Shown here: positions 10,075 through 26,182 of the stretch, in pieces
Position numbering within the stretch: the stretch's first letter is position 1
Layout: each line of letters begins with the position of its first letter
Source: a virus
Taxonomy: Duplodnaviria; Heunggongvirae; Uroviricota; Caudoviricetes
Virus record (IMG/VR): IMGVR_UViG_2874920711_000012
Coordinates: 1-33,220 of that record
Length of the DNA: 33,220 nt
Strand: one strand, 5' to 3'
The notes under the pieces: generated by a model
What the model was told of the DNA's origin: nothing
Database searches by the model: none
The model's input: the letters and a program-made list of their open reading frames with translations, nothing else
Translations under genes and position numbers: made by a program

Positions 10075-10494
10075 TTACTTTCCATTTTTTAATGAATTGA
10101 TTAACGATGCTATTTGCTCAATGCCATCAAATGTAGATGGTATCTTATCATCGGATAGCATGATGTTTGAAAATACTACGTCTTCGAATTTTGAAAGCGC
10201 TTCCGGATTGTTTTTCCTTATCTCTGAGGAATAGTCGCTATAACTCTGAATGAACTGACAAAGGCTCTTTCTGAGTTCTATTTGCATAATCTGAGTTCGT
10301 AACGATATATGATTTAGCAGTACAACTCTAAAGTAATACATGAAAATCAATGTAACTGATGCAAAAGGTAGTGCTGACATAAAATATGTGGCAGCATTTG
10401 TCGTTTCGAGAGCTGGTAATTTATGCATTCCATAGTATATCAGCTGGGAGGGAATGATTATAGCCAAGATGATAAGAATTATTCTTGATAGCAT
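10075..10494 (-). CDS. Hypothetical two-TM membrane protein (139 aa), downstream gene of the S-V cargo module
   Basis: Intact ORF on the strand opposite the phage late genes; two N-terminal hydrophobic segments (RIILIILAIIIPSQLIYYGM and YFMSALPFASVTLIFMYYF); AT-rich. Function unknown. Confidence 0.6.
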   Translation of the reverse strand: MLSRIILIILAIIIPSQLIYYGMHKLPALETTNAATYFMSALPFASVTLIFMYYFRVVLLNHISLRTQIMQIELRKSLCQFIQSYSDYSSEIRKNNPEALSKFEDVVFSNIMLSDDKIPSTFDGIEQIASLINSLKNGK

Positions 10495-10580
10495 GATTGC
10501 ACTTTCTTTTTTTTGCCAAGTGAATTAAAGCCTTCAAACAATCCAACAAAATTAAATGCGACCTCATACCCTTTTAATGA

Positions 10581-11147
10581 CTATTTGATTGACTCTATTT
10601 TGGCATGTTGCTCCTTTAAGAAGGAGTCGCACTTTTCGAAAAATTGACGCCCTTCGTTTAAACTATCAATGTATTTTTTATATGTGTCAACATTGCTGGA
10701 GCTTAAAACTTCTTTAACCATTGCTAATGGCAGTTCTCTAAGAGAAAAGTCTATCTGTGCTCTGCTCCGCTCATCGAATTCATTATAGTTATACAGAGCA
10801 AAATCCTTGATGGTTCTTAGTGGTGAAAAGTGAGACTCTATTTCCGGAGAGAGAATGCTTGGTTCAATGATAAAGCTAAAAAAGCAAGTGAATATAAGGT
10901 TGATGCTGTTGTTATCTTCTCCCTTTTTTCTTAAGAAACTTTTAAAGGTGTCGCCAATCATAGCAATGTTGTGCTGGGATTTTTTGTCCCAATCTTCAGG
11001 GTTTTCGGAAATGAAGTTTATTGCTTGAGCAATTATTTTGTTTCTGTTTGATTCAAAGTTTGTGCCGGGAGTCAGCGTGTTCAAAAAGACCAGATAATCT
11101 TTGAACAATTCTTTCATTGTTTCTGACGAGAAAAAGTAAGTACTCAT
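10581..11147 (-). CDS. Hypothetical soluble protein (~188 aa), upstream gene of the S-V cargo module
   Basis: AT-rich ORF co-oriented with 10075-10494, 86 bp upstream of it. Start chosen at MSTYFF (11147); the ORF track extends to 11243, which would overlap the V start. No recognised motif. Confidence 0.5.
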   Translation of the reverse strand: MSTYFFSSETMKELFKDYLVFLNTLTPGTNFESNRNKIIAQAINFISENPEDWDKKSQHNIAMIGDTFKSFLRKKGEDNNSINLIFTCFFSFIIEPSILSPEIESHFSPLRTIKDFALYNYNEFDERSRAQIDFSLRELPLAMVKEVLSSSNVDTYKKYIDSLNEGRQFFEKCDSFLKEQHAKIESIK

Positions 11148-11233
11148 AATGGATTTTGTTGTCCCTTGTTGTTCTGTGCACCAGAAATCGTGGTGTGATT
11201 TACTTCGAGATTGTACAGAATCATTATTATCGA

Positions 11234-11863
11234 ATGAATGCACAATACAATGAAATTCTTCGCTTTATACGCAATATGATTCGCACTGGCATTATTGTCG
11301 AAACCGACCTTAATGCCGGTCGCTGCCGTGTGCAGACCGGCGGCATGTGCACCGACTGGCTTCAGTGGCTGACCCATCGCGCCGGACGTTCGCGCACATG
11401 GTGGGCACCTTCCGTGGGGGAACAGGTGCTGATTCTGGCCGTGGGCGGTGAACTCGACACGGCGTTCGTTCTGCCGGGGATTTATTCCTGCGATAACCCC
11501 GCGCCGTCTGCGTCGGCGGATGCCCTGCATATCCGTTTCCCTGACGGGGCGGTGATTGAGTATGAACCCGAAACCAGTGCACTCACGGTAAGCGGAATTA
11601 AAACGGCCAGCGTGACGGCTTCTGATTCTGTTACTGCCACGGTGCCGGTGGTCATGGTGAAAGCGTCAACCCGCATCACCCTGGACACCCCGGAGGTGGT
11701 CTGCACCAACAGACTGATTACCGGCACGCTGGAAGTGCAGAAGGGCGGGACGATGCGCGGCAACATTAAACATACCGGCGGTGAACTCTCATCAAACGGT
11801 AAGGTACTGCATACCCATAAACACCCCGGCGACAGCGGCGGCACAACCGGGAGTCCTCTATGA
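11234..11863 (+). CDS. V: Baseplate spike protein gpV
   Basis: …LRFIRNMIRTGIIVETDLNAGRCRVQTGGMCTDWLQW… P2 gpV-like; start at ATG 11234. Confidence 0.9.
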   Translation: MNAQYNEILRFIRNMIRTGIIVETDLNAGRCRVQTGGMCTDWLQWLTHRAGRSRTWWAPSVGEQVLILAVGGELDTAFVLPGIYSCDNPAPSASADALHIRFPDGAVIEYEPETSALTVSGIKTASVTASDSVTATVPVVMVKASTRITLDTPEVVCTNRLITGTLEVQKGGTMRGNIKHTGGELSSNGKVLHTHKHPGDSGGTTGSPL

Positions 11864-12207
11864 CAGCGCGTTATCTTGGAATGAATCGCAGTGATGGCCT
11901 GACGGTCACTGACCTTGAGCATATCAGCCAGAGTATCGGCGATATCCTGCGCACACCGGTCGGCTCACGGGTGATGCGTCGTGATTACGGCTCGTTGCTG
12001 GCGTCAATGATTGACCAGCCGCAGACCCCGGCGCTTGAGTTGCAGATTAAGGTCGCCTGTTACATGGCGGTGCTGAAATGGGAACCCCGCGTCACCCTGT
12101 CATCCGTCACCACGGCGCGCAGCTTTGATGGGCGAATGACGGTCACGTTAACCGGCCAGCACAACGACACCGGCCAGCCACTTTCGTTAACCATCCCTGT
12201 GAGTTGA
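11860..12207 (+). CDS. W: Baseplate protein gpW
   Basis: 115-aa ORF, P2 gpW-like sequence and position. Confidence 0.85.
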   Translation: MTARYLGMNRSDGLTVTDLEHISQSIGDILRTPVGSRVMRRDYGSLLASMIDQPQTPALELQIKVACYMAVLKWEPRVTLSSVTTARSFDGRMTVTLTGQHNDTGQPLSLTIPVS

Positions 12208-12211
12208 AACC

Positions 12212-13120
12212 ATGCCGATTATCGACCTGAACCAGCTACCCGCACCGGATGTGGTCGAGGAGCTGGACTTTGAAACCATTCTCGCCGAACGCAAGGCGAC
12301 ACTGATTTCCCTTTACCCGGAAGACCAGCAGGAGGCGGTCGCCCGTCCCCTGACGCTGGAATCTGAGCCTCTCGTCAAACTGCTGGAGGAAAATGCTTAT
12401 CGTGAGCTTATCTGGCGTCAGCGTGTGAATGAGGCCGCACGGGCGGTGATGCTGGCCTGTGCCGCCGGTAATGACCTTGATGTGATTGGTGCCAATTACA
12501 ACACCACGCGTCTGACTATCACCCCGGCAGATGATTCGACTATCCCGCCGACACCGGCAGTGATGGAGTCTGACACGGATTATCGTCTGCGTATTCAGCA
12601 GGCGTTTGAAGGCTTAAGCGTCGCCGGGTCGGTGGGAGCCTATCAGTATCATGGTCGCAGTGCTGACGGGCGTGTCGCGGATATCTCTGTCACCAGTCCG
12701 TCTCCGGCCTGCGTCACTATCTCCGTGCTGTCACGTGAAAATAACGGCGTCGCATCCGAAGACCTGCTGGCCGTGGTGCGTAACGCCCTTAATGGCGAGG
12801 ACGTCAGGCCGGTGGCCGACCGCGTGACCGTGCAGTCTGCCGCCATTGTTGAATATCAGATAAACGCCACACTTTACCTTTACCCAGGTCCCGAAAGCGA
12901 ACCCATCCGCGCTGCTGCCGTGAAAAAACTGGAAGCGTACATCACGGCACAGCACCGGCTGGGGCGCGACATCCGTCTGTCTGCCATTTATGCCGCTTTG
13001 CATGTGGAAGGCGTGCAGCGTGTCGAACTGACTGCACCGCTGGCTGACATCGTGCTCAACAGTACGCAGGCGTCTTTCTGTACTGAATACCGCGTCGTGA
13101 CCGGAGGCTCGGATGAGTGA
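12212..13120 (+). CDS. J: Baseplate protein gpJ
   Basis: 302-aa ORF, P2 gpJ-like sequence and position. Confidence 0.9.
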   Translation: MPIIDLNQLPAPDVVEELDFETILAERKATLISLYPEDQQEAVARPLTLESEPLVKLLEENAYRELIWRQRVNEAARAVMLACAAGNDLDVIGANYNTTRLTITPADDSTIPPTPAVMESDTDYRLRIQQAFEGLSVAGSVGAYQYHGRSADGRVADISVTSPSPACVTISVLSRENNGVASEDLLAVVRNALNGEDVRPVADRVTVQSAAIVEYQINATLYLYPGPESEPIRAAAVKKLEAYITAQHRLGRDIRLSAIYAALHVEGVQRVELTAPLADIVLNSTQASFCTEYRVVTGGSDE

Positions 13121-13643
13121 TTCGCGACTGCTGCCGACCGGCTCATCACCGCTTGAAGTCGCCGCCGCAAAAGCCTGTGCGGAAATTGAAAAAACACCGG
13201 TCAGTATTCGTGAGCTGTGGAACCCGGACACCTGCCCGGCAAATCTGCTGCCGTGGCTGGCGTGGGCGTTTTCGGTCGACAGGTGGGATGAAAAGTGGCC
13301 GGAAGCGACCAAACGCGCCGTTATTCGCGATGCCTATTTCATCCACTGTCATAAAGGCACTATAGGTGCAATCCGGCGTGTGGTGGAGCCGCTAGGCTAT
13401 CTCATCAACGTGACGGAGTGGTGGGAAACCAGTGACCCGCCGGGCACCTTCCGGCTTGATATTGGTGTACTGGAAAGTGGCATCACAGAGGCAATGTATC
13501 AGGAAATGGAACGGCTGATTGCTGATGCCAAACCTGCAAGCCGCCACCTTATTGGCCTGAACATTACCCGGGACATTCCCGGCTACCTGTTCGCCGGTGG
13601 TGTGGCTTATGACGGCGATGTAATTACGGTTTACCCCGGATAA
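13113..13643 (+). CDS. I: Baseplate protein gpI
   Basis: 176-aa ORF, P2 gpI-like sequence and position. Confidence 0.85.
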   Translation: MSDSRLLPTGSSPLEVAAAKACAEIEKTPVSIRELWNPDTCPANLLPWLAWAFSVDRWDEKWPEATKRAVIRDAYFIHCHKGTIGAIRRVVEPLGYLINVTEWWETSDPPGTFRLDIGVLESGITEAMYQEMERLIADAKPASRHLIGLNITRDIPGYLFAGGVAYDGDVITVYPG

Positions 13644-13654
13644 GTGAGGAATAA

Positions 13655-15756
13655 TGAGCACAAAATTCAGAACCGTTATCACCACTGCCGGTGCAGCAAA
13701 GCTGGCAGCGGCAACCGCACCGGGAGGCGGAAGGTCAACATTACCACGATGGCCGTCGGGATGGCGGTGGTAAATTGCCTGTCCCGGATGCCGGACAGAC
13801 CGGGCTTATCCATGAAGTCTGGCGACATGCGCTGAACAAAATCAGCCAAGACAAACGAAACAGTAATTATATTATCGCAGAGCTGGTTATTCCGCCGGAG
13901 GTGGGCGGTTTCTGGATGCGTGAGCTTGGCCTGTACGATGATGCGGGAACGTTAATTGCCGTGGCGAACATGGCCGAAAGTTATAAGCCAGCTCTTGCCG
14001 AAGGCTCAGGGCGTTCGCAGACCTGCCGTATGGTCATCATCGTCAGCAGTGTGGCCTCAGTGGAGCTGACCATTGACACCACAACGGTGATGGCGACGCA
14101 GGATTACGTTGATGACAAAATTGCAGAGCACGAACAGTCACGACGTCACCCGGACGCCTCGCTGACCGCAAAAGGTTTTACTCAGTTAAGCAGTGCGACC
14201 AACAGCATGTCTGAAACACTGGCTGCAACGTCGAGAGCGGTAAAGACCGCCTATGACCTTGCTAACGGGAAATATACCGCGCAGGATGCCACCACCGCGC
14301 GAAAAGGCCTTGTTCAGCTCAGTAGTGCGACTAACAGCACGTCTGAAACGCTCGCCGCAACGCCGAAAGCATATGACCTTGCTAACGGGAAATACACTGC
14401 ACAGGATGCCACAACAGCGCGAAAAGGCCTTGTTCAGCTCAGTAGCGCCACCAACAGTGATTCTGAAACGCAGGCTGCAACGCCAAAGGCGGTGAAGTCT
14501 GCCTATGACAATGCTGAAAAACGTCTTCAGAAAGATCAGAACGGTGCGGATATCCCTGATAAAGAACGCTTCCTGAGTAACATTAATGTTTACAGCAAAG
14601 GTGAAGTGGATAAGAAAAAGGGAATGCGAAAGTATTCGTTTGCAGCCCCTGCAAATGTCGTTGCCGGGAAGTGGTACCCCGTTATCTTTCGCCGTGCTGC
14701 CAGCCTTTCAGGAGAAATGGCATCCCGCGTTGTTATTTCCACTGGTTGTTATAACGGCGATTATGTAATGAATAACTGCGAGTTTAATGGCATGGTTATG
14801 CCCGGAGGCTGGACTGATCGTGGTTCATATGCGGCAGGTTATTACTGGACGTATCAGACTAATGAGCGTTCAATCCATTCCATTGTTACAAGCCTGAAAG
14901 ATGATGATGTATGTAGTGTTTTTTATGTTGAAGCCAGAGCTTTCCCTGTACAAATTCTTGCAGAGGAAGGGCTAACGGTTATTGTTCCGACAGAGGATTA
15001 TGTCGTCGGTCAAACGACATATAAGTGGGGGGCAACTAATCCCGCTACAGAAAGCACGAACGCACAGGCTATTCTGGATTTTAAAAATGGACGTGGTTAT
15101 TACTGTTCACATCCATTTATTTCCAGCCTTTCAGGAAATGCTGCAACAGCAACGAAGTTAGCGAACGCAAGAAATATTAATGGTGTCAGATTTGATGGCT
15201 CTGCCGATATAAATATTAATACACTGGTATCCAGAAACCGTGTTACTGCATTAGGTGGGAGCGTAAAGGGGACACCAGGTATTCAGATGTATGAGGCATA
15301 CAACAATGGCTACCCAACAGCCTATGGTAATGTGCTTCATCTCACTGGCGTAACCGCAGTAGGAGAGGGTGAGTTACTTATTGGTTGGAGTGGAACCAGC
15401 GGTGCTCATGCTCCGGCATATATTCGTTCCCGACGAGATACCACAGATGCTAACTGGTCTGGATGGGCGCAACTATATACAACTGCTCATAAACCTCAGC
15501 GGGAGATGTTGGTGCATACACCAAAACTGAGTCAGATTCACGTTATGTGAGAGACATGCGGCTGGGCGGTGCATCTACATATAAACCAGCAAATAATGGT
15601 ACTACATGGACGCATCAGGCTCCGTCAGGTTGCGTATATACCGGCATTATTGTTCAGGATACCGGCTCAAACTCTGCCGATAACATTGGTGGCGTATATT
15701 ACAGACCGGTGCAGAAATACATTAACGGGACATGGTATAACGTGGTGCAGGTATAA
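13655..15756 (+). CDS. H: Tail fiber protein gpH (apparent frameshifts near 13725, 13760 and 15545)
   Basis: ATG 13655 encodes MSTKFRTVITTAGAAKLAAATAPG (gpH N-terminus); frame breaks in G-runs; contains SSATNS…AYDLANGKYTAQDATTARKGLVQL repeats; AT-rich distal (receptor-binding) part continues into ORF 15547-15756. Confidence 0.8.
14170..14480 (+). repeat. Coding tandem repeats (~120-nt unit, about 3 copies) inside the tail fiber gene
   Basis: Repeated peptide QLSSATNS(x)SETLAATPKA…YDLANGKYTAQDATTARKGLV visible three times in the gpH translation. Confidence 0.6.
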
Positions 15757-15759
15757 TTT

Positions 15760-16287
15760 ATGCAGCATTTAAAAAATATTACGGCGGGTAATCCAAAAAC
15801 GGTTGAACAATATCAATTGACAAAGGACTTTGATGTTGTCTGGTTTTTTTCAGAAGATGGTAAGAACTGGTACGAAGAACAAAAGTATTTTGCTGATGAC
15901 ACGATAAAAATAGCGTACGACAAAGATAATATCATCCACTATGTGGAAAAGGATGTGACAGCTATCAGACCGGATGGATTAAGTGTTGTTGAAGTGGCGG
16001 ATATTACTGCTAACCGACGGGCGGACATTTCAGGGAACTGGATGTTTAAGGACGGCAAAGTGATTAAACGCGTTTATACGGCAGAGGAATTACAGCAGCA
16101 GGCAGAAATTCGGAAAGCCAGACTTCTTGCAGATGCTGAATCCGTGATTTTGCCGCTGGAGCGCGCGGTCAGACTGAACATGGCAACAGATGAGGAGCGT
16201 AGCCGACTGGAATCATGGGAACGCTACAGCGTTCTGGTCAGTCGTGTGGATCCTGCAAATCCTGAATGGCCGGAAATGCCGCAATAA
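15760..16287 (+). CDS. G: Tail fiber assembly chaperone gpG
   Basis: 175-aa ORF immediately after H, P2 gpG-like. Confidence 0.85.
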
Positions 16288-16731: not shown

Positions 16732-16865
16732 GGGATGGAGGAACTTGATTAAAGGCAGGGGGTTACCTCCCCTGCTAGACTGGCCCCTGAATCTCCAGAC
16801 AACCAGTATCACTTAAATAAGTGATAGTCTTAATACTAGTTTTTAGACTAGTCATTGGAGTACAG

Positions 16866-17231
16866 ATGATTGATGTCTTAGGGCCGGAGAAACGCAGACG
16901 GCGTACCACACAGGAAAAGATCGCAATTGTTCAGCAGAGCTTTGAACCGGGGATGACGGTCTCCCTCGTTGCCCGGCAACATGGTGTAGCAGCCAGCCAG
17001 TTATTTCTCTGGCGTAAGCAATACCAGGAAGGAAGTCTTACTGCTGTGGCCGCCGGAGAACAGGTTGTTCCTGCCTCTGAACTTGCTGCCGCCATGAAGC
17101 AGATTAAAGAACTCCAGCGCCTGCTCGGCAAGAAAACGATGGAAAATGAACTCCTCAAAGAAGCCGTTGAATATGGACGGGCAAAAAAGTGGATAGCGCA
17201 CGCGCCCTTATTGCCCGGGGATGGGGAGTAA
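16866..17231 (+). CDS. insC: IS2 InsC (orfA)
   Basis: [56 protein letters not shown]… IS3-family orfA. Confidence 0.85.
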
Positions 17232-18094
17232 GCTTAGTCAGCCGTTGTCTCCGGGTGTCGCGTGCGCAGTTGCACGTCATTCTCAGACGAACCGATGACT
17301 GGATGGATGGCCGCCGCAGTCGTCACACTGATGATACGGATGTGCTTCTCCGTATACACCATGTTATCGGAGAGCTGCCCACGTATGGTTATCGTCGGGT
17401 ATGGGCGCTGCTTCGCAGACAGGCAGAACTTGATGGTATGCCTGCGAACAATGCCAAACGTGTTTACCGGATCATGCGCCAGAATGCGCTGTTGCTTGAG
17501 CGAAAACCTGCTGTACCGCCATCGAAACGGGCACATACAGGCAGAGTGGCCGTGAAAGAAAGCAATCAGCGATGGTGCTCTGACGGGTTCGAGTTCTGCT
17601 GTGATAACGGAGAGAGACTGCGTGTCACGTTCGCGCTGGACTGCTGTGATCGTGAGGCACTGCACTGGGCGGTGACTACCGGCGGCTTCAACAGTGAAAC
17701 AGTACAGGACGTCATGCTGGGAGCGGTGGAACGCCGCTTCGGCAACGATCTTCCGTCGTCTCCAGTGGAGTGGCTGACGGATAATGGTTCATGCTACCGG
17801 GCTAATGAAACACGCCAGTTCGCCCGGATGTTGGGACTTGAACCGAAGAACACGGCGGTGCGGAGTCCGGAGAGTAACGGAATAGCAGAGAGCTTCGTGA
17901 AAACGATAAAGCGTGACTACATCAGTATCATGCCCAAACCAGACGGGTTAACGGCAGCAAAGAACCTTGCAGAGGCGTTCGAGCATTATAACGAATGGCA
18001 TCCGCATAGTGCGCTGGGTTATCGCTCGCCACGGGAATATCTGCGGCAGCGGGCTTGTAATGGGTTAAGTGATAACAGATGTCTGGAAATATAG
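17189..18094 (+). CDS. insD: IS2 InsD (orfB, DDE transposase domain)
   Basis: 301-aa ORF overlapping insC in another frame, typical IS3-family orfA/orfB arrangement. Confidence 0.85.
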
Positions 18095-18180
18095 GGGCAA
18101 ATCCACCTGCCTTTTTTCGTTTCTGCGCAAGTTAGCTCTGTTATTATAATCCTTACTCACACTGTAAGGACATAGTTCAA

Positions 18181-18309
18181 ATGACTGAATGGCTTAATGC
18201 ACATTTTGGTGCAGACGCAGCTACCTATCTTAGCTTATTAGTCGGCGTACTGGCACTGTTTGGTATTGGGGCGGTGTTACATATAGAATCAGACAGCAAA
18301 ACAACATAA
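18181..18309 (+). CDS. Small TM peptide ORF (42 aa); possibly the N-terminal part of one gene with 18339-18797
   Basis: ATG at 18181 with AAGGA upstream and a TATAAT at 18145-18150; hydrophobic stretch LSLLVGVLALFGIGAVL. The downstream ORF frame is open back to 18232, so a single base difference in 18232-18306 would fuse the two. Confidence 0.4.
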   Translation: MTEWLNAHFGADAATYLSLLVGVLALFGIGAVLHIESDSKTT

Positions 18310-18338
18310 AACAGAAGGCAAAGAAAACCGAGGGTGAT

Positions 18339-18797
18339 GTGAACCAGGCCGGGCGGGATATTAATCAGACCACCAACGTTTACCACACATCCAATGAATC
18401 TACTGAGGACCCTGTAAAAAAAAAGCAAGATGAACATGATCTGAAGATAATCGACCAGATCCTTGAATTGCTGCCTTATGAGGATACTACTCAATGGGTT
18501 GAGCAGAGCTACCTGAGCGGTATACGGCAAGATGTTTGCTTAAACATTGAAAAAGCTGAAAAATTTAGCGGTGAAAAGTATCGGTTATTCAATACTGAAG
18601 TGAATGGTGCGAAAGACGCTTTTTTGGACGCTATGACCGCATACGTAGATAGTACGCTACCATTTATGAGTGTTGATTACCCGAACAGAAAGCCAGTGAT
18701 GCTAAGCCTTCCCCATGACTGGAAGAGTAAGAGTGTTGAATCGGAGGCAAACTTCCGCTTTCATCAGCAAAATGTGCGTGAAACATCGGGGGGATGA
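18339..18797 (+). CDS. Hypothetical protein (152 aa as called)
   Basis: AT-rich ORF with no recognised motif; followed by a terminator hairpin that is split by the IS10-like element. Confidence 0.5.
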   Translation: MNQAGRDINQTTNVYHTSNESTEDPVKKKQDEHDLKIIDQILELLPYEDTTQWVEQSYLSGIRQDVCLNIEKAEKFSGEKYRLFNTEVNGAKDAFLDAMTAYVDSTLPFMSVDYPNRKPVMLSLPHDWKSKSVESEANFRFHQQNVRETSGG

Positions 18798-18955
18798 TTG
18801 CGCGCTATGAGGATTTTGTCAGGACATTTAAGGCTCATGGATTCATAAGCGATAAACTGTAAAGGCGCAGTGGGTCAGCGAACACCGCAACGACAGAACC
18901 GCGTAAGCGGTAAAATCAGCTTGTTAACTGGCGAGTTTATAGCCGTCCCTCCGGG

Positions 18956-20255
18956 CTGAGGGATCCCCACAAAATTACTGCTAATAAACCAGCACCATAT
19001 TTCGGTAGGTTCTGGACAGATGGTTTAGAACTGTGCTCAGTACTGTTCGTCTTAAAATAAGTGGCGAGTGTCGAAGAACATTCTTCGCTAACGTCAGATA
19101 TGAGATAACCCGCCGGGATTTAATGCTGTTAGCCTGATATTTCAGGTGTAACCCTTTATTTTCAGCGTGATAACCGAGTAACCACATTACGATAGTGCTC
19201 AACGTTGCCAGCAGACTCAGAACCAGAATTCTTCCTGTTGAACGACTTTTGCTGGCCCGAAGACCAAATCCGAAGCGCCCGTTCTTTTCATCACGAAAGT
19301 TTTGCTCTATCTGCATTCGCCGACTGTATAACTTGATGATTTCTCGCGCTCTGAAGTCATTTGTACTGCTGAAGATCAACCAGGCTTCTTTTGCTGATTT
19401 GCTCTGTTCTTTGTCTGTTTTGTTTAAACCACTCTGACCTTTCGAACGTTTCTTTTTTCGCCCTTTTGCCGATTTCTTATAGGTGTAAAAATGCCCCGGA
19501 TGCTTTTTTTCCTTTCTTTAACCAGCCTTCCAGCCCCCATATATTCCGGTGTTTTACATTCAGGGCTATCCGACACTTTTAACCATCTTTCAGGCGCGTT
19601 ATCGAGGCAATACTGAACGTTATTTCTGATCCGACCAATAAAATCCCAGCCCAGAGAAGTAATATGGTGAAACCATGCGCTCTGAAATCCAGCATCCGTG
19701 ACAATAATAACCCTGGCATCGGGGGGCAGGGATTGAGCAAGGGAATCAAGGAAATCATGTTGTATCAATGGATTATTTTGTTTTTCAGAAGGAACAACCT
19801 TACTCAATAACGGAATGGAACGCCCGTCACACAGAAGGCTGGCACGAAGAACATGATGCTCCTGGGAGGGATAGCCACTCCAGTCTACGGCTATTACACA
19901 TAAAGATAACTGCCGTGTCAGCATTGAAGTGATATTCCTGAAAATCATTGGAATATCGCGATGGAGCGCCTCATTACCCATGAGGCGATCAATACGTTTG
20001 CTCTTATTCTTAACTTGTGCATTACCCGGGAAAAAACGTCCGATACTGGTCAGCGTCAGAGATGCTCCGTTGATTAACGCCACTGTGGCATCCATCAGGG
20101 CATTTTGTCGGTACTGATGAAATGGTGCTAAGGCATCCCGGAAGAAATTCTGACATACTTTATGAACAGGCATAGCAGTGATCTCATTGAATTGTTGGCA
20201 CAAATCAGTAGATCACATAATGCTATGTCTGTCTCGTTTTCTGGGAATTCCTCAG
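18956..20255 (-). mobile_element. IS10-like element (IS4 family, ~1300 bp) with 9-bp target-site duplication CCCTCCGGG
   Basis: Imperfect terminal inverted repeats CTGAGGGATCCCCACAAAA (18956-) and complement of CTGAGGAATTCCCAGAAAA (-20255); direct repeats at 18947-18955 and 20256-20264; inserted in a terminator hairpin. Confidence 0.75.
18981..20203 (-). CDS. IS10-like DDE transposase, split into two ORFs (apparent frameshift near 19380-19425)
   Basis: N-part has KRIDRLMGN, IAVDWSG and IVTDAGF motifs; C-part has the YREK signature (YSRRMQIEQNFRDEK); clear colinearity with IS10 transposase as recalled. Confidence 0.75.
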
Positions 20256-20525: not shown

Positions 20526-21311
20526 ATGTACGATTATAGTTTTTTACTTACTCCATCTACAGGATTTGTTAAAGGATTATGTGGAGTTTGGTCGAATGAT
20601 TTCTCTATAAATGATGATTCTGACTCTGATTTAGGGCAAACAGATATTCATTTACTTTCATCTCCTCATTTGAATATCATATCCGACCCAAATGAATTGG
20701 CTTCCAAGTTAAAAGGTTTGTTGATGCTCATGAACGGCGCACTTAGCGTTCTTTATGGTTTTGAAAGATATCAATCTTTTGGTCCTCTTTCTATTTCTGG
20801 AAGTGAAGGCATTAATTACTCGGAAATATGCGGCTTTAAATCAATGGATGTAACTCAGGTAAACCCCTTTAATTTCCATGACATACAGCAACCACACCCT
20901 CGCGCTGATAATTTTTCACGATTAATTAATTTATCATCTAAACATGAATCCTTACGTGTTGTTTTAGGTATGTGTGCCTTAGGTTATGATTGGGTTAATC
21001 TTTATCGTTTGTGGGAAACAATTAGAGAATATGTATATGATAAATATGTGAAAGGTATACTAAATTTCCCCGACGCTTATAAAGGCAAGAAATATCAGAG
21101 AGATAAAGTAATTAGCATGGCTTTTAATATTGATGAAAAGGAAATCAGCAGATTCACGGGCACTGCTAATAGCTTTGAACTGTTAGGGTATCTTGCGAGA
21201 CATGGAAAGGGAAGTTCCGGAGGGATATTAAAAAATCCGATGTCAAGAGTTGACGCAAGCATTTTCGTACACAAAGCAACTTACAAATATTGTAAGTTAT
21301 TTTTGATGTAA
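20526..21311 (+). CDS. Hypothetical protein (261 aa), AT-rich cargo gene
   Basis: ATG with AGAGGG Shine-Dalgarno 8 nt upstream; low GC; no recognised motif; convergent with the HNH-domain gene. Confidence 0.6.
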   Translation: MYDYSFLLTPSTGFVKGLCGVWSNDFSINDDSDSDLGQTDIHLLSSPHLNIISDPNELASKLKGLLMLMNGALSVLYGFERYQSFGPLSISGSEGINYSEICGFKSMDVTQVNPFNFHDIQQPHPRADNFSRLINLSSKHESLRVVLGMCALGYDWVNLYRLWETIREYVYDKYVKGILNFPDAYKGKKYQRDKVISMAFNIDEKEISRFTGTANSFELLGYLARHGKGSSGGILKNPMSRVDASIFVHKATYKYCKLFLM

Positions 21312-21472: not shown

Positions 21473-22826
<1,354 letters not shown>

Positions 22827-22898
22827 TGGAGCACCTGTGTTGTTCTGAGGTGAGCATATCACCTCTGTTCAGGTGGCCAAATTCAGTGTGCCACTTCA

Positions 22899-23475
22899 AC
22901 TCGACGATCAACGATAGCGGAGACTCAGGTGCAATCTCGGAGCGAATCGCCGTAAGAGAGAGTCGGAGCTCCTTCAAAGAATCCGAGACTCGTGCTGGAT
23001 CCTCTTGAGCATATGGCAGATAAAGAGAACTCTTGTCTTCCAATAAATGGATCAACCGCAGAGCAATTTTCTCGTCTGGGCGATGCGATAGAAATTGAAA
23101 CATTAGCCTCTTTCCTCCCTCCAAGCACTCCTTCATTAGTGATTCGTGGTCACGTTTCCATTTTCGCAAATACTCGGCGGGGTAGCCCATACCGCCATTC
23201 TTATCAACTAAATCAGCACAAGCTCCGCACAACCATATAGCATTTTTTATGCTCTTCCGCTCTGTTTCTGACTGAGACATGTCATAGCGCGGTCCGCCAG
23301 GGCTCGCCGCGCAGATATGCGCCGCCTCACCCGTCTTGATAGAAAGATTTTCCGCCAATTGATCCGGGCCGATTGTTACCCTATGACAAGAGGGATTGCT
23401 ACAAATATATGTAGCGCGCTCTGCTACCTTACCTACAACGCTTGGAGGAAAGTTGTGCCTATTTGTCTTGGTCAT
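22899..23475 (-). pseudogene. 5' part of an HNH-nuclease-domain gene (~250 aa when rejoined), interrupted by IS911
   Basis: N-terminal region has CSNPSC, AAHICAASPGGPRY and NAIWLCGACADLV, an HNH-like arrangement; the ORF-track C-terminus beyond 22899 is IS911-derived. Confidence 0.6.
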
Positions 23476-23499: not shown

Positions 23500-24597
23500 T
23501 CATCTATGTGGGGAGAATAAAATCATACTTTTTATATCTGATCCTAAATAGCTGCGCTTAATACCGCTACACTTTTGCCAGTCCATGTTTGCCTCCGGGA
23601 ATGGGCTGACGGTTTCCATAAAATGGCGAACTTTTTTCAACAGTTGCCACATTGAGCGGCACTGATGATTACGCGTTATTGTGTCGTGAAGTGCCTGCCA
23701 TAGCCGTTCAACATGATTCACCCATGGCGAGTAAACCGGCTGATAAATGACCCTGAACTTCGGGTTCTCCTTCAGCCAGCTCTGTGTTTCCCGGCTTTTG
23801 TGGATAATGTAGTTGTCCACGATCAGCGTGATGGTTTTCGCCCGACGGTATGTCGCTTTAAGCCGCTTCAGCAGGCTGATGAACAGCGCCGAACTTTTGC
23901 TGTTGCCGCCCACATAGCTGACTTTACCTGTCCCGCTGTGCAGCGCTCCGGCCAGATAATATTTTTCATTCTGTCCCGGCGTGACCACCCGTTTTTGCTG
24001 TCCGCGCAGTTGCCAGTCCGCACCGATTTTGGGATGAAGATGGATATCCACTTCATCTTCATAAAAGACCGGATGCTCTGCGCTGCATTCGTCCAGTGCT
24101 TTATGGATTGCTGCCATCTTTTCATCTTTATGCGGGTCACGGATACGCAGAGTTGGCGCAGCCCTTCGCCACACAATCCCCGCAGACGGCAACCAGCGGC
24201 GAACGGTTCCGGCATTTAACTGGCAACCGGTTATCTCATTGATTTTTATTGCCAGCAGTTCTGTACTCCAGCGTGAACGCTGGTAGACAAAGTCGCCGGG
24301 AGAATGTTTTACCAGCTCACGTAACAGTGTGCAGATATGCTCAAACGGCCAGCGACGGGCACGCCCGGCAGGTAATGATTTCAGTCCCTCAACACCCGAC
24401 TGCGTGAACCAGTTAATCCAGCGTCCAACAGAGGAACGGGCGCAGCAGAGCGTTCTGGCAACGTCGCTGACACGGTCGCCCCGGTGCAGCATCAGCATGG
24501 CAGTCAGTCTGCGGGCATAATTTTTATCGTGTGTTTTATGGATGGCTTTCTGCATCAGGCGTCGTTCGTCACGGGAAATTGGTGCTATGATCGGCAT
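23500..24597 (-). CDS. IS630 transposase (ORF as called runs past the IS end)
   Basis: MPIIAPISRDERRLMQKAIHKTHDKNYARRLTAMLMLHRGDRVSDVARTLCCARSSVGRW… matches IS630 transposase as recalled; the last ~15 codons lie outside the element. Confidence 0.85.
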   Translation of the reverse strand: MPIIAPISRDERRLMQKAIHKTHDKNYARRLTAMLMLHRGDRVSDVARTLCCARSSVGRWINWFTQSGVEGLKSLPAGRARRWPFEHICTLLRELVKHSPGDFVYQRSRWSTELLAIKINEITGCQLNAGTVRRWLPSAGIVWRRAAPTLRIRDPHKDEKMAAIHKALDECSAEHPVFYEDEVDIHLHPKIGADWQLRGQQKRVVTPGQNEKYYLAGALHSGTGKVSYVGGNSKSSALFISLLKRLKATYRRAKTITLIVDNYIIHKSRETQSWLKENPKFRVIYQPVYSPWVNHVERLWQALHDTITRNHQCRSMWQLLKKVRHFMETVSPFPEANMDWQKCSGIKRSYLGSDIKSMILFSPHR

Positions 24598-24698
24598 TGC
24601 TCAGTCCGGTTGGTGATTTGTTTTGATTTGGCGATTGATCAGATCGCACAATCCGGGCTAAGTTCCCTCAAAATGATCTACTATTCCGCGCAGCTATT
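23547..24698 (-). mobile_element. IS630 (1152 bp) inserted at a CTAG target with TA duplication
   Basis: Terminal inverted repeats AATAGCTGCGC… at both ends; TA at 23545-23546 and 24699-24700, flanked by C and G. Confidence 0.85.
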
Positions 24699-24993: not shown

Positions 24994-26182
24994 ATGAGTG
25001 ACTATCATCACGGCGTGCAGGTGCTGGAGATTAACGACGGCACCCGCGTCATTTCCACCGTATCCACGGCCATTGTCGGCATGGTCTGCACGGCCAGCGA
25101 TGCAGATGCGGAAACCTTCCCCTCAATAAACCGGTGCTGATTACCAATGTGCAGAGCGCAATTGCAAAGGCCGGTAAAAAAGGCACGCTGGCGGCGTCGT
25201 TACAGGCCATCGCTGACCAGTCAAAACCGGTCACCGTTGTTGTGCGCGTGGAAGACGGCACCGGCGACGACGAAGAAACGAAGCTCGCGCAGACCGTTTC
25301 CAATATCATCGGCACCACCGACGAAAACGGTCAGTACACCGGACTGAAAGCCCTGCTGGCGGCGGAGTCGGTAACCGGTGTTAAACCGCGCATTCTCGGT
25401 GTGCCGGGACTGGATACCAAAGAGGTGGCTGTTGCACTGGCATCAGTCTGTCAGAAGCTGCGCGCTTTCGGGTATATCAGCGCATGGGGCTGTAAAACCA
25501 TTTCCGAGGTGAAAGCCTACCGCCAGAATTTCAGCCAGCGTGAGCTGATGGTCATCTGGCCGGATTTCCTCGCATGGGATACGGTCACCAGTACCACCTC
25601 CACCGCGTATGCCACCGCCCGTGCGCTGGGGCTGCGCGCTAAAATCGACCAGGAGCAGGGCTGGCATAAAACGCTGTCCAACGTCGGGGTGAACGGTGTT
25701 ACCGGCATCAGCGCGTCCGTATTCTGGGATTTGCAGGAGTCCGGCACCGATGCTGACCTGCTTAACGAGTCAGGCGTCACAACGCTGATTCGCCGTGACG
25801 GTTTCCGCTTCTGGGTAACCGTACCTGCTCTGATGACCCGCTGTTCCTCTTTGAAAACTACACCCGCACCGCGCAGGTGCTGGCCGACACGATGGCTGAG
25901 GCGCACATGTGGGCGGTGGACAAGCCCATCACCGCAACGCTGATTCGCGACATCGTTGACGGCATCAATGCCAAATTCCGTGAGCTGAAAACAAACGGCT
26001 ATATCGTGGATGCGACCTGCTGGTTCAGCGAAGAATCCAACGATGCGGAAACCCTCAAGGCCGGAAAACTGTATATCGACTACGACTATACACCGGTGCC
26101 TCCTCTCGAAAACCTGACCCTGCGCCAGCGTATTACCGATAAATACCAGGCAAATCTGGTCACCTCGGTTAACAGCAATTAA
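24994..26182 (+). pseudogene. FI: Tail sheath protein gpFI with two apparent frameshifts (near 25125 and 25820)
   Basis: [43 protein letters not shown] then a stop; adding one C to the C-run restores …[11 protein letters not shown]…; a second break near GFRFW. Confidence 0.85.

What the first reader, a model, noticed from the sequence alone, without database searches (positions are those of the whole stretch)
18181..18797. Possible single TM-anchored protein hidden as two ORFs
The 42-aa TM peptide ORF (18181-18309) and the 152-aa ORF (18339-18797) are in frames one base apart. The downstream frame stays open back to 18232, so a one-base difference in 18232-18306 (for example the GGGG or AAAA runs) would give a ~205-aa protein with one N-terminal TM helix. 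Given the homopolymer indels elsewhere, this is plausible. Function is unknown.
Basis: inference. Interest (0 to 1): 0.5.

Follow-up and report, generated by a model that had tools for sequence, protein, structure and literature searches.

The report
Split prophage membrane-protein gene
The breaks are single missing G's in G-runs that look like assembly errors, and the protein belongs to a rare, uncharacterised family that sits next to anti-phage defence genes.

Summary
DNA 99.4-99.7% identical in 35 complete E. coli genomes carries one 684-nt CDS here (WP_000141343.1, 227 aa, "hypothetical protein").

The gene is therefore in three pieces, not two: 18181-18309, 18234/18339-18797 and 18797-18862. 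Restoring both G's gives a product identical to WP_000141343.1.

The breaks are probably technical. Against the nearest relative there are 15 one-base indels and only 10 substitutions in 11.8 kb. Thirteen are bases missing from window homopolymers, 11 of them G/C runs. All four G/C runs of 5 or more in the cargo DNA are one short. A real mutation at site 1 is not excluded, because the G4 allele occurs in four other assemblies.

The protein has an N-out/C-in single TM helix, a G-x-x-x-Q-x-G-x-D linker motif and a confidently modelled cytoplasmic helical bundle. It has no Pfam, NCBIfam, PADLOC or PHROG match.

The gene sits in the P2 tail-gene (Z/fun) cargo hotspot. Homologues are stand-alone cargo of an integron, prophages, plasmids, a CAST transposon and islands, usually beside defence genes. 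A defence or exclusion role is inferred, not shown.

The parts
18181..18862 (+). Whole gene. It is 682 nt as written and 684 nt once one G is restored in each of two G-runs. It encodes a 227-aa single-pass membrane protein identical to WP_000141343.1.
   Evidence: Alignment to E. coli AH62 and elppa5. The repaired translation is identical to the AH62 CDS.
18181..18309 (+). Fragment 1: 42-aa ORF. Residues 1-30 are authentic (extracytoplasmic N-tail plus most of the TM helix), followed by 12 out-of-frame residues.
   Evidence: The exact 42-aa product is also called in 4 other assemblies.
18268..18271 (+). Frameshift site 1: G4 run. It is G5 in intact alleles and encodes G30-G32 at the cytoplasmic end of the TM helix.
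18234..18797 (+). Fragment 2: the frame carrying residues 31-205. It is open from 18234, its first start codon is GTG at 18339 (152-aa ORF), and its stop is TGA at 18795-18797.
   Evidence: The exact 152-aa product is found on only one contig in the collection, CP026824.1.
18416..18424 (+). A9 tract (KKK, residues 80-82) at the linker/C-domain boundary. It is intact here but is A8 or A10 in many other genomes, giving 87-aa or 84-aa plus 131-aa splits.
18788..18793 (+). Frameshift site 2: G6 run (G7 in all intact alleles). It creates the premature TGA.
18797..18862 (+). Fragment 3: the orphaned C-terminal tail IARYEDFVRTFKAHGFISDKL plus stop, which is the last helix of the bundle.
   Evidence: It is conserved in all homologues.
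18102..18180 (+). The 79 nt of native upstream DNA left after the IS2 insertion. It holds a perfect TATAAT (18145-18150) and an AAGGA Shine-Dalgarno inside a CCTTAC/GTAAGG hairpin.
   Evidence: Read directly from the sequence. The consensus scan did not call a full promoter here.
16776..18101 (+). IS2 copy (insC/insD) inserted in the gene's upstream region.
   Evidence: ORFs. The breakpoint comes from comparison with AH62 and L030. The IS2 name rests on my own recognition of the InsC/InsD sequences.
18956..20255 (-). ISSfl1 (IS4 family) inserted 93 nt after the stop. It is 1300 nt against 1301 nt in reference copies, and its transposase is frameshifted at a C-run (19493).
15760..16287 (+). P2-type tail-fibre assembly gene, the left border of the cargo hotspot.
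   Evidence: Caudo_TAP call. Synteny with E. coli P2-like prophages is.
25134..26182 (+). P2-type tail sheath gene (split by a G-run contraction at 25812), the right border of the cargo hotspot.

Best explanation
Window 18181-18862 is one gene, not two. It encodes a 227-residue protein identical to E. coli WP_000141343.1. The gene is written in three frames because one G is missing from each of two G-runs: G5->G4 at 18268-18271 and G7->G6 at 18788-18793. These losses are most likely base-calling or assembly errors of this genome (CP026824.1), which under-calls G/C homopolymers throughout the window. In the real organism the ORF is therefore probably intact.

The protein has several parts:
- A short conserved N-terminal tail (M-x-x-W-L-N-x-x-x-G-x-D).
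- A single TM helix (about residues 13-33) with the positive charge on its C-terminal side, so the N-terminus faces out and the rest faces the cytoplasm.
- A basic juxtamembrane stretch.
- A G-[DN]-V-x-Q-A-G-R-D-I-N motif in a linker that the model leaves disordered.
- A helical bundle of about 150 residues.

The gene is a stand-alone cargo gene in the tail-gene (Z/fun) accessory hotspot of a P2-like prophage.

Inferred, not shown: it is a single-gene anti-phage or superinfection-exclusion factor. The cytoplasmic bundle would sense or regulate, and the conserved N-tail/TM module would act at the inner membrane.

Confidence by step: one ancestral gene split at two G-runs, about 0.98; the splits are artefacts, about 0.75-0.85; a defence or exclusion function, about 0.45.
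For: One gene:
- 35 of 5426 complete E. coli genomes hold 99.4-99.7% identical DNA with a single 684-nt CDS.
- The alignment shows exactly two 1-nt gaps in G-runs, and the repaired ORF gives an identical protein.
- 16 homologues from E. coli, Salmonella, Vibrio, Pseudoalteromonas and metagenomes are colinear proteins of 219-234 aa.
- P2-like phage contigs L028 and L029 carry the intact gene (G5/A9/G7) at the same hotspot.

Artefact:
- Against E. coli ST2350, all 9 small indels in 8.4 kb are G or C missing from a run in the window.
- G/C runs shortened: 7 of 38 of length 4 and 4 of 10 of length 5. In the cargo, 4 of 4 runs of length 5 or more are shortened, against 0 of 139 A/T runs.
- Against the nearest relative L030 (99.4-99.8% identical, sharing the ISSfl1 and IS630-family insertions) there are 15 one-base indels and 10 substitutions. 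Thirteen are window deficits and 11 of those are in G/C runs.
- The ISSfl1 copy is 1 nt short of reference copies.
- The 152-aa ORF occurs on only this contig in the whole collection.
- Shigella dysenteriae short-read partial proteins read through both G-run sites intact.
- The window carries C at 18152, like the G5 haplotype. All G4-allele assemblies carry T there.

Protein:
- There is one hydrophobic segment (KD19 of 1.89 at residues 13-35). The N-terminal flank has charge -2 and the C-terminal flank +4.
- In the AF2 model, residues 78-227 form a helical bundle at pLDDT of about 90.

Context:
- The gene lies between the tail-fibre assembly gene and the sheath gene.
- This hotspot holds about 16% of P2 defence systems (PMC13586616).
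- Homologues are cargo of a Vibrio chromosomal integron array, a prophage, a plasmid, a Tn7-like I-F CAST and genomic islands, with no conserved neighbour.
- Neighbours within 6 kb include PifA and AbiD, PDC-S28, RmrA, HEC-08 and LeoBC, type I RM, a PDC-M68A-like HNH gene and putAbiC.
- The C-domain is also found fused to TIR_2 (E = 1.2e-7), next to AbiEii.
- The N-module is also found on LPO_1073/Vpar_1526 proteins and as a translationally coupled small gene upstream of a TPR protein.
Against: Artefact claim:
- No reads are available.
- The identical G4 allele (42 aa + 174 aa) is present in four other assemblies. One of them is an E. coli P2-like prophage with the same cargo (L021-L024). Site 1 is therefore a genuine natural mutation site and could be real here too.
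- The host looks like an IS-ridden Shigella-type genome, where real pseudogenes abound.

Function claim:
- It rests only on guilt by association and domain-fusion logic.
- There is no hit in PADLOC, Pfam, NCBIfam or PHROGs.
- No experiment or paper mentions the protein.
- Frequent frameshift alleles (A8, A10, G4) could equally mean the gene is dispensable or decaying.
Confidence: 0.72

Rival explanations
1. Genuine pseudogene. One or both G-run contractions are real slipped-strand mutations fixed in this strain, and the gene is dead. This would fit decay of an IS-ridden prophage in a Shigella-type genome.
For: The G4 allele exists in four other assemblies, apparently short-read or metagenomic, in two different genomic contexts. 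A8 and A10 frameshift alleles of the same gene are common in E. coli, S. boydii, Morganella, Serratia and Raoultella. Four IS elements have already wrecked the hotspot and the neighbouring HNH-like gene.
Against: The window shows a one-directional deficit restricted to G/C runs. One-base indels outnumber substitutions 15 to 10 against the nearest relative, and every G/C run of 5 or more in the cargo is short. That pattern is not what natural mutation produces. The nearest relative L030 has G5 and G7. S. dysenteriae short-read assemblies have both sites intact. The window's SNP at 18152 matches the G5 haplotype, not the G4 one.
Confidence: 0.2
2. Contingency locus or recoding. The G5, A9 and G7 tracts would make expression phase-variable, or would be bypassed by transcriptional slippage or ribosomal frameshifting. 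Frameshifted alleles would then still yield some full-length protein, or deliberately yield a TM-only peptide.
For: Tract-length variants occur at two of the three tracts in nature. The tracts are longer in the E. coli allele than at the same sites in distant homologues: G4, A5-A7, and G4 or none. The A9 tract sits exactly at the boundary between the N-module and the C-domain. That N-module also exists as a separate small gene elsewhere. A 55%-identical homologue also has A9 at this site.
Against: G5 is too short for efficient slippage. A run of three AAA lysine codons is expected by codon usage alone. There is no within-strain ON/OFF evidence. In the window the A9 tract is unchanged, and the two changed tracts follow the assembly-wide G/C error pattern. 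Most complete E. coli genomes carry the intact allele: 29 of the 30 listed hits.
Confidence: 0.05
3. Two real, separate genes: a 42-aa membrane peptide and a 152-aa soluble protein acting as a pair, like the small-TM-gene plus TPR-gene operon seen elsewhere.
For: The N-module occurs as an independent, translationally coupled small gene in L027. A GAGGG Shine-Dalgarno-like sequence lies 4 nt before the GTG at 18339.
Against: The break falls inside the TM helix's cytoplasmic end. It removes the conserved basic stretch and the Q-A-G-R-D motif from the peptide and leaves 12 nonsense residues. All 16 close and distant homologues are fused. The 152-aa ORF also lacks the conserved last helix and is unique to this one contig.
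Confidence: 0.02
4. The gene is real and intact but is not a defence gene. It could be another kind of accessory membrane protein, for example an envelope-stress, adhesion-island or phage lysis/lysogeny accessory factor. Its place beside defence genes would then only reflect shared cargo hotspots.
For: No homology to any known defence protein. In E. coli it often sits at the edge of Ag43/GTPase CP4-type islands. Hotspots also carry non-defence cargo, such as partition systems and toxins (PMC9122126).
Against: A recognised or candidate defence gene lies within 6 kb in most of the 12 independent contexts examined. The C-domain is fused to TIR next to AbiEii. The family is carried by integron, CAST, prophage and plasmid cargo slots.
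Confidence: 0.35

Closest known systems
WP_000141343.1, 'hypothetical protein' (227 aa) of E. coli and near-identical copies in Serratia, Morganella, Hafnia and Raoultella
   Same: 100% identical once the two G's are restored. The flanking 855-bp module is the same. The P2 hotspot cargo set is the same in L021, L028 and L029.
   Different: In the window it is written in three frames (G4 and G6) and is flanked by IS2 and ISSfl1. Nothing is known about its function.
Cargo of the P2 tail-gene (Z/fun) accessory hotspot
   Same: The position is the same, between the tail-fibre assembly gene (G) and the sheath gene (FI) of a P2-like prophage. The hotspot is documented to hold defence systems (PMC13586616). 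That P2's own Z/fun gene blocks phage T5 is from my own knowledge.
   Different: No sequence relation to any catalogued system was found (PADLOC). I could not compare it with the P2 Z/fun protein itself.
Small prophage-encoded inner-membrane superinfection-exclusion proteins (HK97 gp15, T4 Imm, P22 SieA)
   Same: A prophage moron encoding a short protein with an N-terminal TM anchor, which could act at the inner membrane. This is an analogy from my own knowledge, not a tested relation.
   Different: No detectable sequence or fold relation: PHROGs hits have E > 0.1 and BFVD Foldseek has E > 0.04. This protein has a conserved 150-aa helical bundle and a conserved N-tail that those proteins are not known to share.
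Single-protein or two-protein abortive-infection architectures that pair a TM or TIR effector with a sensor domain (for example the PADLOC TIR-TM models and the TM effectors of CBASS and Pycsar)
   Same: The logic is modular. The C-domain is fused alternatively to a 1-TM module, to multi-TM N-termini or to TIR_2. The N-module is fused or coupled alternatively to this C-domain, to Vpar_1526/LPO_1073 or to TPR proteins.
   Different: There are no nucleotide-signal components, no match to those models and no evidence of membrane disruption.
LPO_1073/Vpar_1526 family proteins (NF045477, PF28206)
   Same: A subset (P0039, P0044, P0063) carries the same N-terminal W-L-N/TM/G-x-x-I-Q-x-G-G-D module.
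   Different: The C-terminal domain is unrelated, and the window protein does not match NF045477.
Generic four-helix bundles (talin rod, MCP 4HB ligand-binding domains, de novo bundles)
   Different: Identity is 6-13% with no shared motifs. These are typical of any up-down helical bundle and are not evidence of homology.

Membership tests
WP_000141343.1-type 227-aa family (unnamed) | Colinear full-length alignment (about 220-234 aa) including the N-terminal TM segment and the C-terminal FI[ST]DK end | tested here: met
   After restoring two G's the product is identical to the AH62 CDS. 16 homologues align end to end.
WP_000141343.1-type 227-aa family (unnamed) | Family motifs: W4, N6, G10, D12; Q-A-G-R-D; L-P-Y-E-D-T; E-x-F-x-G; P-x-D-W-K; Y-x-x-F | tested here: met
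   Invariant and near-invariant columns of alignment A2 are all present in the three window fragments.
Any curated protein family (Pfam-A, NCBIfam, PHROGs) | Score above the family threshold | tested here: not met
   Pfam has 0 hits at E <= 1. The best NCBIfam hit has E = 0.16 at 11 bits against a cutoff of 500. The best PHROGs hit has E = 0.12.
Known or candidate anti-phage defence systems (PADLOC-DB v2.0.0) | Match to a defence protein model | tested here: not met
   0 families at E <= 1.
Anti-phage defence gene (functional class) | Recurrent co-location with known defence genes on mobile elements | tested here: met
   Neighbours are PifA and AbiD (L008), PDC-S28 (L032), RmrA (L031), HEC-08 and LeoBC (L017), type I RM and a PDC-M68A-like gene (L001 and the window), a PDC-S66-like gene (L035) and putAbiC in CAST cargo (L014). 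No formal enrichment statistic was computed.
Anti-phage defence gene (functional class) | Protection against phage when expressed | not testable with these tools
   Needs cloning and plaque assays. No paper mentions the accession.
Cargo of the P2 tail-gene (Z/fun) hotspot | Located between the tail-fibre assembly gene (G) and the tail sheath gene (FI) of a P2-like prophage | tested here: met
   The window's gene order, and the same order in L021, L028, L029 and L030 without the IS2 insertion.
Single-pass N-out/C-in inner-membrane protein | One hydrophobic segment of about 20 residues with the positive charge bias on the cytoplasmic side | tested here: met
   KD19 is 1.89 at residues 13-35, with no second segment above 1.0. 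Flank charges are -2 (N) and +4 (C). The AF2 helix spans residues 12-26 at low confidence. The topology is predicted only.
Phase-variable contingency locus | Tract-length polymorphism among strains at homopolymers inside the ORF | tested here: met
   A8, A9 and A10, and G4 and G5, alleles occur in several genera.
Phase-variable contingency locus | Reversible ON/OFF switching within a clone at useful frequency | not testable with these tools
   Needs population sequencing or reporter assays. The G5 and A9 tracts are short for this.
Phage XM1 gp11-like baseplate hub protein | Robust sequence similarity and a shared beta-sandwich tube fold | tested here: not met
   Profile A2 hit 7kh1 gp11 at E = 5.6e-5. 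The hit disappeared with the broader C-domain profile A3. gp11 is a beta-sandwich (PMC10457771), whereas this domain is modelled as an all-helical bundle.
LPO_1073/Vpar_1526 family | Match to NF045477 or PF28206 in the C-terminal domain | tested here: not met
   The window protein has no hit. Only the N-terminal module is shared with some members.

The most novel reading that the evidence does not exclude
The 227-aa protein would be the founding member of a new stand-alone, membrane-anchored anti-phage (abortive-infection or exclusion) family. It is built from two portable modules. The first is a conserved N-tail/TM/Q-x-G-x-D module, also used by Vpar_1526/LPO_1073 proteins and coupled to TPR proteins. 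The second is a cytoplasmic helical bundle, also fused to TIR and to multi-TM effectors. Its homopolymer tracts (G5, A9, G7) would make it unusually easy to switch off, which would explain the many frameshifted alleles in nature.
Probability: 0.35. Interest if true: 0.55.

Novelty: new member of a known kind. Interest (0 to 1): 0.3.

Why it matters
For this window the practical point is quality control. The "two ORFs" are one gene. The same G/C-homopolymer under-calling breaks the sheath, tube, tape-measure, tail-fibre and transposase genes nearby. ORF-level oddities in this sequence should therefore not be read as biology without reads.

Biologically, the repaired gene is an unannotated, rare, highly mobile cargo gene in a documented prophage defence hotspot. 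It uses the effector-plus-sensor domain swapping that has repeatedly flagged new immune systems. That makes it a cheap, well-defined candidate for a phage-challenge screen. If it protects, it adds a single-gene membrane system and assigns a role to the N-terminal module shared with the uncharacterised Vpar_1526/LPO_1073 proteins.

Tried and rejected
- **Family libraries.** Pfam, NCBIfam, PADLOC and PHROGs scans of the intact protein found nothing usable.
- **XM1 gp11.** The PDB profile search hit the phage XM1 baseplate protein gp11 (E = 5.6e-5), which suggested tail-assembly mimicry. I rejected this because the hit vanished with a broader 27-sequence C-domain profile and gp11 is a beta-sandwich.
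- **Conserved partner gene.** None exists. Neighbours differ in every context, and the 261-aa gene downstream in the window is absent in strain 144.
- **Inherited G4 allele.** I asked whether the window's G4 came from the natural G4 haplotype (L021-L024). This is not supported: those all carry T at 18152, the window carries C like the G5 alleles, and the nearest relative L030 has G5.
- **Selection on the A9 tract.** Homologues have A5-A7 there and one has A9, which codon usage alone can explain.
- **Literature.** Searches for WP_000141343, CP026824, GCA_002949875 and LPO_1073 returned no papers.
- **Profile word-index search.** A second search with the C-domain profile added no annotated relatives.
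- **Species of CP026824.1.** Not verified. Neighbouring accessions CP026837 and CP026844 are Shigella boydii plasmids.
Full report
**Observation.** The frames are one base apart. The downstream frame is closed by TAG at 18231-18233 and is open from 18234, so a one-base change anywhere in 18234-18306 would fuse them. A GGGG run sits at 18268-18271.

**What the sequence really is.**
- A megablast of 18100-18980 found 99.4-99.7% identical DNA in 35 of 5426 complete E. coli genomes. In 29 of the 30 listed hits it is 855 bp against the window's 854 and lies under one annotated CDS.
- In strains AH62 and 144 this CDS is WP_000141343.1, a 227-aa "hypothetical protein".
- The three-way alignment shows no substitutions in the gene. 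It shows exactly two one-base gaps in the window: G5->G4 at 18268-18271 and G7->G6 at 18788-18793.
- The second gap creates the TGA at 18795-18797 and strands the last 21 codons (IARYEDFVRTFKAHGFISDKL) at 18797-18862 in the third frame.
- Putting one G back into each run gives a 684-nt ORF whose product is identical to the AH62 protein.
- A database search returned 16 relatives (36-100% identity) from E. coli, Salmonella, Vibrio, Pseudoalteromonas and metagenomes. All are colinear single ORFs of 219-234 aa, apart from obvious fragments.

**Artefact or mutation?** The window comes from CP026824.1 (GCA_002949875.1), the only contig in the collection that encodes the exact 152-aa product. Several results point to systematic under-calling of G/C homopolymers.
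1. Against the P2-like prophage of E. coli ST2350, all nine 1-2-nt indels in 8.4 kb are G's or C's missing from runs in the window.
2. Run by run, 7 of 38 G/C runs of length 4 and 4 of 10 of length 5 are shorter in the window. In the cargo DNA compared with AH62, all four G/C runs of 5 or more are shorter, none of six runs of length 4, and none of 139 A/T runs.
3. Against the nearest relative found (IMG/VR contig L030, 99.4-99.8% identical, sharing the ISSfl1 and IS630-family insertions), 11.8 kb shows 15 one-base indels and only 10 substitutions. Thirteen are deficits in window homopolymers and 11 of those are in G/C runs. L030 has G5 and G7.
4. The ISSfl1 copy next door is 1300 nt against 1301 nt in reference copies.
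5. Short-read Shigella dysenteriae assemblies give partial proteins that read through both G-run sites intact.

There is a caveat. The 42-aa product, and hence the G4 allele, is also called in four other assemblies. These are an E. coli isolate whose P2-like prophage carries the same cargo without IS elements (L021), an SRA assembly (L022) and two metagenome contigs (L023, L024). All of them have G7 intact. Site 1 is therefore a real natural mutation site. Those four share T at window position 18152, whereas the window has C like the G5 alleles. Inheritance of that haplotype is therefore not indicated. I put the artefact explanation at about 0.75 for site 1 and about 0.85 for site 2. Only reads can settle it.

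**A hypermutable gene in nature.** Cluster look-ups show that the A9 tract (18416-18424, encoding KKK at the linker/domain boundary) varies in other genomes. A8 gives an 87-aa N-fragment plus a 131-aa C-fragment in E. coli, S. boydii, Morganella and Serratia. A10 gives an 84-aa fragment in E. coli elppa5, Raoultella and Serratia. L030 has A8. Distant homologues have shorter runs at the three sites. This could reflect dispensability, counter-selection of a costly gene, or phase variation. I could not distinguish these.

**The protein.**
- There is one hydrophobic segment (residues 13-35, KD19 of 1.89). The 12-residue N-tail has net charge -2 and the following 20 residues +4, which predicts N-out/C-in.
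- The N-tail is strongly conserved (W4, N6, G10, D12, A14, Y16).
- A basic stretch and a G-D-V-x-Q-A-G-R-D-I-N motif follow. The motif is triplicated in one homologue.
- AlphaFold2 with the 16-sequence alignment gives pLDDT below 50 for residues 1-74 and about 90 for a helical bundle at 78-227.
- Pfam, NCBIfam, PADLOC and PHROGs give nothing.
- A PDB profile hit to phage XM1 gp11 did not survive a broader profile, and the fold disagrees.

**Modularity.** An exhaustive profile search returned 60 hits. Three patterns stand out.
- The N-module alone recurs as small ORFs of 58-87 aa. One overlaps a Vpar_1526 ORF in another frame (L025). Another is translationally coupled, with a 4-nt overlap, to a TPR protein (L027).
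- The N-module also recurs fused to the LPO_1073/Vpar_1526 domain.
- The C-domain recurs behind multi-TM N-termini and behind a TIR_2 domain (PF13676, E = 1.2e-7). That TIR fusion sits next to AbiEii.

**Genomic context.**
- The window is a P2-like prophage next to yegQ.
- The gene lies between the tail-fibre assembly gene (15760-16287) and the sheath gene (25134 onward), which is the tail-gene (Z/fun) accessory hotspot.
- Intact P2-like contigs carry the same cargo trio there: this gene, a 261-aa unknown gene, and a 250-aa DUF6650/PDC-M68A-like HNH gene.
- In the window the hotspot has been hit by IS2 (79 nt upstream of the ATG), ISSfl1 (93 nt after the stop), an IS3-family element and an IS630-family element.
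- The literature describes this P2 hotspot as holding about 16% of P2 defence systems (PMC13586616; PMC9122126).
- Elsewhere the gene is stand-alone cargo. It is found in CP4-type E. coli islands beside HEC-08 and LeoBC or a type I RM system, a Vibrio chromosomal integron array, another prophage's post-tail-fibre slot and a Salmonella plasmid-like element. It is also found in Tn7-like I-F CAST cargo beside putAbiC, beside PifA and AbiD, beside PDC-S28 in Serratia and beside RmrA in a viral contig.
- No neighbour is conserved.
- The family is rare: four hits among 185,579 species representatives and four IMG/VR contigs, in pattern-limited scans.

**Interpretation.**
- Shown: this is one gene, split at two G-runs, in a window with a pervasive G/C-run deficit. 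It encodes a predicted single-pass membrane protein of an unannotated family and is mobile cargo usually found beside defence genes.
- Inferred: the splits are technical, and the protein is a single-gene defence or exclusion factor. Its cytoplasmic bundle would sense or regulate, and its conserved N-tail/TM module would act at the membrane.
- Rivals are a true pseudogene (about 0.2), a phase-variable or recoded locus (about 0.05), two genuine genes (about 0.02) and a non-defence accessory function (about 0.35 of the functional question).

**Verdict.** The finding is correct but ordinary as a sequence feature: a frameshift-split copy of an already catalogued hypothetical protein, most likely from assembly error. 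The residual interest lies in the uncharacterised family as a defence candidate.

Noticed in passing
window 13725, 13757, 19493, 23596, 25812, 26386, 27282, 28082, 28130, 28501, 30112, 31613 (and others): Single G or C bases are missing from homopolymer runs relative to close relatives. This splits the tail-fibre, ISSfl1 transposase, sheath, tube, tape-measure and gpD-like genes. It is an assembly-wide pattern, so other frameshift findings in this window are suspect.
   Followed up: yes
window 16776-18101, 18956-20255, 21652-22898, 23547-24698: Four IS elements (IS2, ISSfl1, an IS3-family element and an IS630-family element) are packed into the 8.8-kb cargo hotspot of the prophage. The nearest relative L030 shares only the ISSfl1 and IS630-family insertions.
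   Followed up: partly
window 21473-21651 + 22899-23475 (- strand): A 250-aa DUF6650 gene whose N-terminal part matches PADLOC PDC-M68A and CBASS-type HNH endonuclease effector models (E = 6.6e-24). It is split by the IS3-family insertion, and the IS630-family element sits just upstream of it.
   Followed up: partly
window 20526-21311 (+): A 261-aa ORF with no Pfam or PADLOC match. It travels with the TM gene in P2 hotspots (L021, L028, L029) and in strain AH62, but is absent in strain 144. Function unknown.
   Followed up: partly
window 18416-18424; L002, L030: The A9 tract in the gene is A8 or A10 in many E. coli, Shigella, Morganella, Serratia and Raoultella assemblies, producing 87- or 84-aa and 131-aa ORF pairs that databases list as separate hypothetical proteins.
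   Followed up: partly
L025:898-1897; L027:65-1521: The N-terminal W-L-N/TM/G-x-x-I-Q-x-G-G-D module also occurs as a small separate ORF upstream of a Vpar_1526-domain ORF (overlapping in another frame at an A5 run, possibly another frameshift) and upstream of a TPR protein (4-nt overlap, a genuine two-gene operon).
   Followed up: partly
window 10075-11243 (- strand): Two minus-strand ORFs (139 and 220 aa) sit between the P2 gpS-like and gpV-like genes. The relative L021 has a different 347-aa minus-strand gene there, so this may be a second variable cargo slot.
   Followed up: no
window 14367: A 12-nt in-frame deletion in the tail-fibre gene relative to L030, in a repeated AAAGGC/GGTAAAGGC-like stretch. 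The flanking region aligns to itself at about 80% identity, so the gene is internally repetitive here.
   Followed up: no
window 18145-18171: A perfect TATAAT (18145-18150) and a CCTTAC-N7-GTAAGG hairpin (18151-18169) that overlaps the AAGGA Shine-Dalgarno of the TM gene. This could affect translation. The IS2 insertion leaves only 79 nt of native upstream DNA.
   Followed up: no
L017:8998-10098 and 11314-14645; L032:9238-11754; L008:5370-7613: Immediate neighbours of the gene in other genomes are strong matches to the PADLOC models HEC-08, LeoBC (dynamin-like), PDC-S28 and PifA. These loci are compact defence islands.
   Followed up: partly
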